Assembly: GCF_030013205.1 (NCBI RefSeq)
Contig: NZ_CP122648.1
From: Escherichia coli
GTDB taxonomy: Bacteria; Pseudomonadota; Gammaproteobacteria; Enterobacterales; Enterobacteriaceae
DNA length: 64,000 nucleotides
Direction: 5' to 3' (one strand)
The position numbers were made by a program. Positions 52,011 to 55,000 of this stretch are shown in pieces (within the stretch, counting starts at the first letter, position 1; every line of letters starts with the position of its first letter).

Positions 52011-55000
52011 TGATCTGATTCGGGCGCGGTTCTCGCGCCCGTTATTAACAGGTCATTTATCGGAAGACGCCTGCCACAGATTCAGCTCGCCATCGGCGAT
52101 ATGCTGATCAATCTGCGCCAGCTCCTCGGTGCTAAATGTCAGATTATTCAGCGCCTGCACGTTCTCCTCAAGTTGCTCCGCGCGGCTGGCACCAATCAAT
52201 ACCGACGTCACGCGATCATCTTTCAGCAACCAGCTTAACGCCATTTGCGCCATTGATTGTCCACGTTGCTGTGCCATTTCATTCAATAACCGCAGGCTGT
52301 TGAGGTTGGCTTCGGTGAGCATTTTCGGCGTCAGACCACGAACTTTATTCCCTTCACGATGCATCCGTGAATCTTGCGGAATGCCGTTGAGATATTTCCC
52401 GGTCAGCAATCCCTGAGCCAGAGGAGTAAAGGCAATGCAGCCCACGCCGTTATTTTGCAGGGTATCCAGCAGGCCGCTTTTATCCACCCAGCGGTTCAGT
52501 AAATTGTACGAAGGTTGATGAATTAACAGCGGAATTTTCCACTCGCGCAGCAACTCGACCATTTTTTGCGTCCGCTCTGGCGAGTAAGAGGAGATCCCGA
52601 CATACAGCGCCTTACCGCTTTGTACCGCATGAGCCAGCGCAGAGGCGGTTTCTTCCATCGGCGTATTTTCATCGACGCGATGAGAGTAAAAGATATCGAC
52701 ATACTCAAGCCCCATACGGTTCAGGCTTTGGTCGAGGCTGGCGGGCAGATATTTACGTGAACCGCCAGAGCCGTAAGGGCCGGGCCACATATCGTATCCA
52801 GCCTTGGTAGAGATAATCAGTTCATCGCGATAAGCGGCAAAATCCTCCCGCAGCAGGCGACCAAAGTTCTCTTCTGCGCTTCCTGGAGGCGGCCCGTAAT
52901 TGTTGGCTAAATCAAAGTGCGTAATGCCTAAATCAAACGCTTTACGCAGGATCGCACGCTGTGATTCCAGCGCGTTAACGTGACCGAAATTGTGCCATAA
53001 ACCGAGCGATAACGCGGGCAGGCGTAAACCGCTTTTTCCGCAATAACGGTACTGCATCTGCCCGTAACGCTCGGGATTCGCTAACCAGACCATGACCTCT
53101 CCTTTCCACCATTCAATTTCGAAACAATGTTTCTAGTTTAGCGATTCATCAGCGCGTATCCCGTAGTCTGGCTCACAGAGTGACGAAAAACTGGGCAAAA
53201 ACACGTGCTTATGCTTTGCTTAAAAAAACACCAACTGAGGAGTGCAATGATGCCGCGTTTAACCGCCAAAGATTTCCCACAAGAGTTGCTGGATTACTAC
53301 GACTATTACGCTCACGGGAAAATCTCGAAACGTGAGTTCCTCAACCTTGCGGCGAAGTATGCGGTAGGCGGGATGACGGCATTAGCGTTGTTTGATTTGC
53401 TCAAGCCAAATTATGCGCTGGCGACTCAGGTAGAGTTTACCGACCCGGAAATTGTTGCTGAGTACATCACGTATTCTTCGCCAAATGGTCACGGCGAGGT
53501 ACGGGGTTATCTGGTGAAGCCCGCAAAGATGAGCGGCAAAACGCCAGCCGTGGTGGTGGTGCATGAGAATCGTGGACTGAATCCGTATATCGAAGATGTG
53601 GCACGGCGAGTGGCGAAGGCGGGGTATATCGCCCTGGCACCTGACGGCTTAAGTTCCGTTGGAGGTTATCCGGGAAATGATGATAAAGGTCGTGAGCTGC
53701 AACAGCAGGTTGATCCAACCAAACTGATGAATGATTTCTTTGCCGCAATTGAGTTTATGCAACGCTATCCGCAAGCGACAGGCAAAGTGGGTATTACCGG
53801 ATTTTGCTATGGCGGTGGCGTATCGAACGCGGCGGCTGTCGCGTATCCGGAACTGGCCTGCGCGGTGCCGTTTTATGGTCGACAGGCACCCACCGCCGAT
53901 GTGGCGAAGATTGAAGCGCCTTTACTACTCCACTACGCGGAACTGGACACCCGAATCAACGAGGGCTGGCCTGCTTACGAGGCGGCGTTGAAAGCCAATA
54001 ATAAGGTCTATGAGGCGTATATCTATCCGGGGGTTAATCACGGATTCCATAATGATTCCACGCCCCGTTATGACAAATCAGCCGCCGATCTTGCCTGGCA
54101 AAGAACGCTGAAATGGTTCGATAAATATCTCTCCTGATAGGTTTATCTCTTACGGGATTACGTCTTAAACAAGCATGAAAAAATAGCGTGCGCAGAAGTC
54201 GTTCTTTGCCTAAAATATCGCTATATATGACAATATATAGCGAATGAGGTGAACGATGAATAACCATTTTGGTAAAGGCTTAATGGCGGGATTAAAAGCA
54301 ACGCATGCCGACAGTGCGGTTAATGTGACAAAATACTGTGCCGATTATAAACGCGGTTTTGTATTAGGCTACTCACACCGGATGTACGAAAAGACCGGAG
54401 ATCGCCAGCTTAGCGCCTGGGAAGCGGGTATTCTGACGCGCCGCTATGGACTGGATAAAGAGATGGTAATGGATTTCTTTCGTGAGAATAATTCCTGTTC
54501 TACGTTGCGCTTTTTTATGGCCGGTTATCGCCTCGAAAATTGATCAAACATACGTATTATCTTGCTTTAATTAATTACACTAATGCTTCTTCCCTTCGTT
54601 TTAGCGCCCCGCCGCAGTATCATGATATCGATAACCATAATAAATGTGTGGTAAATGGCGCATCGATCGCATTATTGATTTTGCGATTGAGGCAAAATAT
54701 ATGCCAGGTCTTCGCAACGGAATAACTATAAATGACTGGAGATAACACCCTCATCCATTCTCACGGCATTAACCGTCGTGATTTCATGAAGCTTTGTGCA
54801 GCATTAGCCGCCACCATGGGGTTAAGTAGCAAAGCCGCTGCAGAGATGGCCGAATCGGTTACTAACCCGCAGCGTCCGCCAGTTATCTGGATTGGCGCGC
54901 AGGAGTGTACCGGTTGTACTGAATCTCTGCTTCGTGCAACGCATCCAACGGTAGAAAACCTCGTGCTGGAGACTATCTCTCTGGAGTATCACGAAGTGCT

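What the first reader, a model, noticed from the sequence alone, without database searches (positions are those of the whole stretch)
54219..54244. Perfect 11-bp inverted repeat immediately upstream of yghW
TCGCTATATAT-GACA-ATATATAGCGA sits about 12 bp upstream of the yghW start, overlapping the likely promoter and 5' UTR. The symmetry and spacing fit a dimeric transcription-factor operator; there is no T-run, so it is unlikely to be a terminator. yghW lies just upstream of the hyb operon, so anaerobic or metal-responsive control is plausible.
Basis: seen in the sequence. Interest (0 to 1): 0.4.

Follow-up and report, generated by a model that had tools for sequence, protein, structure and literature searches.

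The report
ModE molybdate-regulator site at yghW promoter
The palindrome is a near-perfect DNA binding site for ModE, the molybdate-sensing regulator of E. coli, sitting on the promoter of the small gene yghW; ModE control at this locus is already published, so this is ordinary, though unusually well conserved.

Summary
The inverted repeat is real. It lies at 54218-54243, one base left of the stated coordinates: 11-bp perfect arms, 4-bp centre, ending 12 nt before the yghW ATG. It is far beyond chance.

It is not an FNR, NsrR, IscR or NarL site. The 28 bp at 54217-54244 (ATCGCTATATA-TGACAA-TATATAGCGAA) match the published E. coli ModE consensus ATCGNTATATA-N6-TATATANCGAT at 19 of 20 specified positions. 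That is better than the classical modA, moaA, dmsA and napF sites (16-18).

The box is present (17-20/20) upstream of yghW in all 80 Enterobacteriaceae species sampled. In 79 of them it ends 10-21 nt before the start codon, while flanks and neighbouring genes change. Conservation is by sequence identity at exactly the consensus positions, not by compensatory pairing, so it is a protein site rather than an RNA hairpin.

The best promoter-like -10 hexamers fall inside the box, as at modA. In Salmonella, yghW belongs to a "molybdate iModulon" with modABC. The most likely mechanism is ModE-molybdate blocking the yghW promoter, so that yghW is induced when molybdate is scarce.

ModE control at this locus was published by Kurata et al. 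2013, who named an antisense gene, morA. Verdict: already known, low interest.

The parts
54217..54244 (.). ModE box, full 28-bp consensus span: ATCGCTATATA-TGACAA-TATATAGCGAA
   Evidence: Matches 19/20 specified positions of ATCGNTATATA-N6-TATATANCGAT (consensus quoted in PMC545781; scoring). The next best score in the 64-kb window is 14. Equivalent to K-12 MG1655 3146749-3146776.
54218..54228 (.). Left arm of the perfect inverted repeat (TCGCTATATAT); left ModE half-site plus the first spacer base
   Evidence: Box positions 3, 4 and 6-11 carry 1.9-2.0 bits across 79 distinct sequences.
54228..54233 (.).
   Evidence: Unspecified in the consensus. It is the polymorphism hot spot within E. coli: TGACAA, TTGCGA, TGGAGA, TGGCGA, TAACAA.
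54233..54243 (.). Right arm of the perfect inverted repeat (ATATATAGCGA); last spacer base plus the right ModE half-site
   Evidence: Box positions 18-23, 25 and 26 carry 1.8-2.0 bits.
54206..54211 (+). -35-like hexamer TTGCCT of the predicted yghW promoter
   Evidence: Shimada et al. 2014 list TTGCCT-17-GACAAT as the RpoD 'constitutive' promoter of yghW (PMC3946193). It is the best sigma-70-like match in my scan. No transcription start site data could be obtained.
54229..54234 (+). -10-like hexamer GACAAT, in the centre of the ModE box
   Evidence: In 56 of 81 loci from other species the best -10 is instead TATAAT at box positions 8-13; both lie inside the box.
54212..54216 (.). Conserved A-tract (AAAAT) immediately 5' of the box; on the - strand it is the T-run after the hairpin
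   Evidence: 1.3-1.6 bits at positions -5 to -2 across genera. Scored as terminator-like on the - strand. Role unknown.
54246..54250 (+). Shine-Dalgarno sequence of yghW (GAGGT)
   Evidence: Read from the sequence. A G-rich block follows the box directly in nearly all species.
54256..54543 (+). yghW coding sequence (95 aa, DUF2623), the gene the box accompanies
   Evidence: ORF. Pfam DUF2623, E = 4.6e-53. Annotated yghW in 5,412 E. coli genomes.
54221..54301 (-). 26-aa TTG-initiated ORF antisense to the yghW 5' end, ending inside the box; a candidate for the published morA (unverified)
   Evidence: ORF list. Open only in Escherichia. yghW/morA is cited as an overlapping antisense pair (PMC4683798, PMC5960689). 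The primary paper could not be read.

Best explanation
The palindrome is the core of a ModE operator. ModE is the homodimeric, molybdate-binding winged-helix regulator of the mod, moa, dms and nap operons, and it recognises ATCGNTATATA-N6-TATATANCGAT. Here one dimer would bind 54217-54244, covering the -10 region and the probable transcription start of the yghW promoter. That is the same geometry as the repressed modA promoter. When molybdate is plentiful, ModE-molybdate occupies the box and shuts off yghW. When molybdate is scarce, ModE leaves and yghW is transcribed together with modABC.

Shown here: the sequence match, its rank against the classical sites, its conservation and its position. 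Taken from the literature: the consensus, co-regulation of yghW with modABC in Salmonella, and the existence of a ModE-controlled gene (morA) overlapping yghW. Inferred: the sign of regulation (repression), promoter occlusion as the mechanism, and yghW rather than only the antisense morA as the conserved target.
For: (1) The box matches the published E. coli ModE consensus at 19/20 specified positions (consensus; scores). The relaxed pattern finds only this site in the window, against 0.14 expected by chance. The next best 28-mer in the window scores 14.

(2) It scores higher than the four classical K-12 sites scanned the same way: modA 16, moaA 16, dmsA 17, napF 18. Each of those is the single outlier in its own region.

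(3) All 80 yghW loci from 80 species carry the box at 17-20/20: Escherichia, Citrobacter, Salmonella, Klebsiella, Raoultella, Kluyvera, Kosakonia, Enterobacter, Cedecea, Buttiauxella, Shimwellia and others. It ends 10-21 nt before the start codon in 79 of them.

(4) Information content is about 2 bits at exactly the consensus-specified positions. It is low at the consensus N positions (1.1 and 0.8 bits), and the upstream flank beyond about 25 nt carries almost none.

(5) The neighbouring genes change (hybO, yghX or gpr may be present or absent), but the box stays with yghW.

(6) Geometry resembles modA, where the box ends 17 nt before the ATG and the operon is repressed. It differs from the activated moaA, dmsA and napF, where the distances are 173, 71 and 196 nt.

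(7) The best sigma-70-like -10 lies inside the box. In the window it is TTGCCT-17-GACAAT, also listed by Shimada 2014. In 56 of 81 loci it is TATAAT at box positions 8-13.

(8) The Salmonella 'molybdate iModulon' is modA, modB, modC, STM0770, STM0771, STM3142 and yghW (PMC9764980). modABC and yghW also fall together in Std-ON cells (PMC6173445).

(9) Kurata et al. [quoted passage not shown] This is the only strong ModE box within 5 kb of yghW in K-12; the next best scores 13/20.
Against: No binding or expression experiment could be inspected directly, because the primary paper is not held. From my memory of its abstract, it assigns the ModE-dependent promoter to the antisense gene morA, not to yghW.

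No transcription start site for yghW could be retrieved. The supplements were truncated or silent, so promoter occlusion remains an inference.

In E. coli the predicted -10 (GACAAT) lies in the polymorphic spacer and is lost in some strains, for example GGCGAT. Some E. coli variants have a weakened right half-site, TATATAGCAAA.

The co-regulation evidence comes from Salmonella, not E. coli.
Confidence: 0.85

Rival explanations
1. The box is a ModE site, but its functional target in E. coli is the antisense transcript or gene morA, as published. On this reading yghW itself is not meaningfully ModE-regulated.
For: The title of Kurata et al. 2013 and secondary citations name morA, overlapping yghW, as the ModE-controlled gene. 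A TTG-initiated 26-aa ORF antisense to the yghW 5' end ends inside the box. The - strand also carries a -10-like TATATT inside the box (read).
Against: The antisense ORF is open only in Escherichia, whereas the box and its fixed distance to the yghW start codon are conserved in 79 of 80 species. What lies to the left of the box varies between genera. yghW itself co-varies with modABC in Salmonella transcriptomes. The two readings are not mutually exclusive.
Confidence: 0.12
2. The repeat acts as an RNA stem-loop in the yghW 5' UTR, just upstream of the Shine-Dalgarno sequence, stabilising the mRNA or modulating translation.
For: As RNA, 54206-54270 folds to -18.5 kcal/mol with the 11-bp stem; z = -5.5 against shuffles. 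The stem ends 2 nt before the Shine-Dalgarno sequence.
Against: Across 50 distinct sequences the core pairs are invariant in sequence, with no compensatory change. At the two positions free to vary, pairing is lost in 18 of 50 sequences each (5-24 and 12-17). The predicted -10 elements lie inside the box, so the left arm would not be transcribed. No Rfam family matches. The sequence identity equals a known protein-binding consensus.
Confidence: 0.04
3. On the - strand the hairpin plus TATTTT acts as an intrinsic terminator for antisense or read-through transcription coming out of yghW.
For: The terminator scan scores it on the - strand: 11 pairs, a 4-nt loop, then TATTTTAGGC. The corresponding A-tract 5' of the box is conserved across genera at 1.3-1.6 bits.
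Against: Only 3 of the 11 stem pairs are G-C. No annotated - strand gene ends here. The conservation pattern follows the ModE consensus rather than stem strength.
Confidence: 0.04
4. It is an operator for another regulator (NsrR, IscR, FNR, NarL/P, Fur, Zur, NikR, LexA), or a chance AT-rich palindrome.
For: It is AT-rich, dyad-symmetric and overlaps a promoter. hyb lies next door in E. coli.
Against: The consensus scores for all of these regulators are at the level of random 73-nt windows; 50-300 of 300 random windows score at least as high. Chance is excluded by the shuffles and by conservation in 80 species.
Confidence: 0.02

Closest known systems
ModE operator of the modABC promoter (E. coli modA)
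   Same: Same consensus inverted repeat with a 6-bp spacer. The box lies directly on the promoter and close to the start codon (17 nt at modA, 11 nt here). modABC and yghW sit in one 'molybdate iModulon' in Salmonella. The expected mechanism is the same: repression by ModE-molybdate through promoter occlusion.
   Different: The yghW box is closer to consensus (19/20 against 16/20). The regulated product is a 95-aa DUF2623 protein of unknown function rather than a transporter. Repression at yghW is inferred here, not demonstrated.
ModE activation sites at moaA, dmsA and napF
   Same: The same recognition sequence; scores of 16-18 out of 20.
   Different: Those boxes lie 71-196 nt upstream of the start codon. 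By established knowledge of these promoters, ModE acts there as a co-activator. The yghW box overlaps the -10 region instead.
The ModE target 'morA', antisense to yghW (Kurata et al. 2013, J Bacteriol 195:4496)
   Same: The same locus. This is the only strong ModE box near yghW in K-12, so it is almost certainly the site behind that report.
   Different: That paper could not be read here. From memory of its abstract, it attributes the ModE-dependent promoter to an antisense short-peptide gene. The comparative data here tie the box to yghW itself.

Membership tests
ModE operator (molybdate-responsive regulator binding site) | Inverted repeat matching ATCGNTATATA-N6-TATATANCGAT | tested here: met
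   19/20 specified positions at 54217-54244. The only mismatch is the outermost base, A54244 instead of T. 0 of 300 random windows reach this score.
ModE operator (molybdate-responsive regulator binding site) | Fixed 6-bp spacer of unspecified sequence between the half-sites | tested here: met
   The spacer is 6 bp in the window and in all 80 species. Its sequence varies between and within species.
ModE operator (molybdate-responsive regulator binding site) | Comparable to or better than experimentally established ModE sites of the same genome | tested here: met
   modA 16, moaA 16, dmsA 17, napF 18, yghW 19 out of 20, all scanned identically in K-12 MG1655.
ModE operator (molybdate-responsive regulator binding site) | Conserved as a sequence-specific footprint next to the orthologous gene in related genomes | tested here: met
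   80 of 80 species score 17-20/20. About 2 bits at the specified positions and lower at the N positions, with an upstream flank that diverges beyond about 25 nt.
ModE operator (molybdate-responsive regulator binding site) | Bound by ModE-molybdate in vitro or in vivo | not testable with these tools
   Reported, as I recall, by genomic SELEX in Kurata et al. 2013. That paper is not held; only its title and citations were seen.
ModE operator (molybdate-responsive regulator binding site) | Adjacent gene responds to molybdate or modE | not testable with these tools
   Indirect literature support only. yghW belongs to the Salmonella 'molybdate iModulon' with modABC and is co-downregulated with modABC.
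Intrinsic (rho-independent) terminator | G+C-rich stem followed by a T-run on the transcribed strand, at the end of a gene | tested here: not met
   + strand: no T-run follows the repeat, and the scan scores no terminator-like site there. - strand: TATTTT follows the hairpin, but only 3 of 11 stem pairs are G-C and no annotated gene ends there.
Structured 5'-UTR RNA element | Pairing maintained by compensatory changes; element lies within the transcript | tested here: not met
   No compensatory change in the core pairs. The variable pairs 5-24 and 12-17 are unpaired in 18 of 50 sequences each. The predicted -10 lies inside the element. No Rfam match. The transcription start itself could not be obtained.
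   FNR 6/10, NsrR 11/23, IscR 15/25 and 15/24, NarL 10/14. Between 50 and 232 of 300 random windows score at least as high. The consensus strings were taken from memory.

The most novel reading that the evidence does not exclude
The conserved target of the strongest ModE box I scored in E. coli is yghW itself. YghW would then be a core molybdate-starvation protein of the Enterobacteriaceae, switched on together with the ModABC transporter. It is an all-helical 95-aa DUF2623 protein with no structural relative in the PDB. Its role in molybdenum homeostasis would be uncharacterised, for example in scavenging, storage, or sparing of molybdenum cofactor. The Escherichia-only antisense morA would be a secondary, lineage-specific overlay on the same operator.
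Probability: 0.6. Interest if true: 0.35.

Novelty: already known. Interest (0 to 1): 0.15.

Why it matters
It gives the palindrome a specific regulator and signal (ModE and molybdate) in place of a generic 'operator' label, and removes the suggested link to anaerobic or hyb regulation. There is a modest added point. The box is closer to consensus than the textbook ModE sites and is fixed next to yghW across the family. This marks the uncharacterised DUF2623 protein YghW as a conserved member of the molybdate-limitation response. It also suggests that the published assignment of this site to the antisense gene morA may not be the whole story. None of this is surprising to a specialist.

Tried and rejected
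1. Reading the primary paper (Kurata 2013) by DOI, PMID and PMC id, and Studholme & Pau 2003 by PMC id: neither is held. The consensus was taken instead from Rodionov 2004.

2. Finding a yghW transcription start site in the Cappable-seq and Kim 2012 supplements: the files were truncated or had no entry.

3. Testing the alternative regulators FNR, NsrR, IscR, NarL, Fur, CRP, LexA, NikR and Zur: all score at chance level.

4. The RNA hairpin reading: it folds well, but there is no covariation and no Rfam family.

5. The + strand terminator reading: no T-run.

6. Fold search on a YghW model for functional clues. The model has pLDDT 89 and five helices. No PDB match has E < 1, and Pfam gives only DUF2623.

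7. Locating the second 'place' that about 10% of E. coli genomes show for the left part of the region. It is not within 20 kb in strain FORC_081. It is not a different context of the identical protein. The 'plasmid' hits are mislabelled chromosomes. Nothing was found in viral contigs, and the 9 metagenome hits are all the primary locus. The repeated part was narrowed to 54190-54229. It remains unexplained.

Full report
**Observation.** The window is E. coli chromosome: gpr/yghZ, then yghX, yghW and hybO onwards. The 501 bases around the finding are 100% identical to strain K_EC180 and present in 5,412 of 5,426 complete genomes. The inverted repeat exists, with arms at 54218-54228 and 54233-54243, 11 of 11 complementary and 4 nt between them. 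yghW starts at 54256, with GAGG at 54246-54249. Perfect repeats of this size occur at 9 places in the window against 0.17 expected from shuffles. This is the only AT-rich one.

**Identity.** The sequence suggested the ModE box to me. The E. coli consensus is quoted in Rodionov et al. 2004 as ATCGNTATATA-[N6]-TATATANCGAT (PMC545781). The 28 bp at 54217-54244 match 19 of the 20 specified positions. Only the last base differs.

A relaxed pattern with up to 3 mismatches finds this site alone in 64 kb, against 0.14 expected. The next best 28-mer in the window scores 14. I fetched the four classical ModE-controlled promoters from K-12 MG1655 and scanned them identically. Each has one outlier: modA 16, moaA 16, dmsA 17, napF 18. 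The yghW site (K-12 3146749-3146776) scores 19.

**Conservation.** A scan of one genome per species returned 80 yghW loci from 80 Enterobacteriaceae species, with YghW 64-98% identical to the query.
- Every locus has the box at 17-20/20. It ends 10-21 nt before the start codon in 79 loci; one has a 73-nt gap.
- Anchored on the box, information content is about 2 bits at positions 3, 4, 6-11, 18-23, 25 and 26. It is 1.1 and 0.8 bits at the two consensus N positions and intermediate in the spacer. Upstream, a -35-like block and an A-tract next to the box are partly conserved, and beyond about 25 nt the flank is nearly random.
- The flanking genes change. hybO follows yghW only in Escherichia, Citrobacter, Salmonella, Kosakonia, Phytobacter and a few other lineages, and the upstream gene is yghX, gpr or something else. 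The box always stays with yghW.
- Within E. coli, polymorphism of the promoter region concentrates in the 6-bp spacer. The 'GACA' centre and the innermost base of each arm are therefore the least meaningful part of the palindrome.

**DNA site or RNA hairpin?** As RNA the repeat would fold strongly: -18.5 kcal/mol, z = -5.5. But across 50 distinct sequences the core pairs never change, so they say nothing for pairing. The two pairs that are free to vary are unpaired in 18 of 50 sequences each. Conservation of identity at exactly a protein's consensus positions, with indifference at its N positions, is the signature of a protein site. No Rfam family matches. On the - strand the hairpin is followed by TATTTT and scores as terminator-like. 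However, the stem has only 3 G-C pairs and no annotated gene ends there.

**Mechanism.** Shimada et al. 2014 list TTGCCT-17-GACAAT as the sigma-70 promoter of yghW (PMC3946193). That places the -35 at 54206-54211 and the -10 at 54229-54234, in the centre of the box. In 56 of 81 loci the best promoter-like match instead has a perfect TATAAT at box positions 8-13, with a -35-like hexamer 18 bp upstream.

Either way the -10 and the predicted start lie inside the box. The box sits 11 nt from the ATG, as at the repressed modA (17 nt), and unlike the activated moaA, dmsA and napF (71-196 nt).

In Salmonella Typhimurium, independent-component analysis of transcriptomes groups yghW with modA, modB and modC in a 'molybdate iModulon' (PMC9764980). 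yghW and modABC are also co-downregulated in Std-ON cells (PMC6173445).

I therefore infer repression of yghW by ModE-molybdate through promoter occlusion, with induction under molybdate limitation. I could not obtain a transcription start site or any direct binding data, so the sign and mechanism remain inference.

**What is already known.** Kurata et al. [quoted passage not shown] Two later papers cite it for the overlapping antisense pair yghW/morA. The paper itself is not held.

From my memory of its abstract, genomic SELEX plus reporter assays identified a ModE-dependent promoter for a short-peptide gene, with an unusual start codon, on the strand antisense to yghW. Since this is the only strong ModE box within 5 kb of yghW in K-12, it must be the site behind that report.

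A 26-aa TTG-initiated ORF at 54301-54221 on the - strand overlaps the yghW 5' end and stops inside the box. It may be morA, but I could not verify this. It is open only in Escherichia, whereas the box-to-yghW arrangement is family-wide. I therefore think yghW is the ancestral target and morA, if real, a lineage-specific addition.

**YghW.** It matches DUF2623 only. The model is a five-helix protein with pLDDT 89 and no PDB fold match. Its function under molybdate limitation is unknown. That is the only open question of some interest here.

**Verdict.** The feature is a ModE operator at a locus where ModE control is already published. Interest is low.

Noticed in passing
window 54190-54229 (left part of the promoter region) in E. 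coli genomes: About 10% of complete E. coli genomes give a second matching 'place' for the left part of the region (563-566 extra places), but not for the right part (8 extra). The second copy is not within 20 kb of yghW in strain FORC_081. It is not in the window, in viral contigs, or among the 9 metagenome hits.
   Followed up: partly
window 54228-54233 and E. coli loci L087-L092: Within E. coli almost all polymorphism of the yghW promoter region lies in the 6-bp centre of the ModE box (TGACAA, TTGCGA, TGGAGA, TGGCGA, TAACAA, and one strain with GCGGCA). This also alters the predicted -10 hexamer. Some metagenome variants additionally weaken the right half-site (TATATAGCAAA) and the Shine-Dalgarno sequence.
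   Followed up: partly
window 53205-54137 (+): yghX is an intact dienelactone-hydrolase-family ORF in this window (Pfam DLH, E = 3.6e-48, with an N-terminal YqhI-like segment). In K-12 it is a frameshifted pseudogene with a separate small yqhI gene.
   Followed up: no
window 54212-54216 and positions -5 to -2 of the 80 loci: An A-tract immediately 5' of the ModE box is conserved across genera at 1.3-1.6 bits. modA has no A-tract at the equivalent position, and moaA, dmsA and napF show none either. On the - strand it is the T-run after the hairpin. Its role is unknown.
   Followed up: partly
window 54221-54301 (-): A 26-aa TTG-initiated ORF antisense to the first 16 codons of yghW stops inside the ModE box. 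It is open only in Escherichia species. It is a possible candidate for the published morA peptide, unverified.
   Followed up: partly
L059:2400-2500 (Enterobacter sp. JUb54): This is the only locus of 80 in which the ModE box is 73 nt rather than 10-21 nt from the yghW start. About 60 extra bases lie between the box and the Shine-Dalgarno sequence.
   Followed up: no
E. coli NBRC 3301, NZ_CP048439.1 731809-731895 (hit H30): Only the first 87 nt of window 54100-54600 (the yghX 3' end) match. yghW and its promoter appear to be deleted in this strain.
   Followed up: no
window 5628-5654, 11404-11435, 13157-13182, 21295-21322, 39972-39998, 42302-42332, 44621-44644, 50411-50439: Eight other perfect inverted repeats of at least 11 bp with short spacers, all G+C-rich. 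They are probably intrinsic terminators or REP-like elements.
   Followed up: no
window 54256-54543 (YghW protein): The AlphaFold model from a 15-sequence alignment is a five-helix protein (pLDDT 89, pTM 0.79) with no PDB fold match at E < 1. Only one of the five models was confident.
   Followed up: partly
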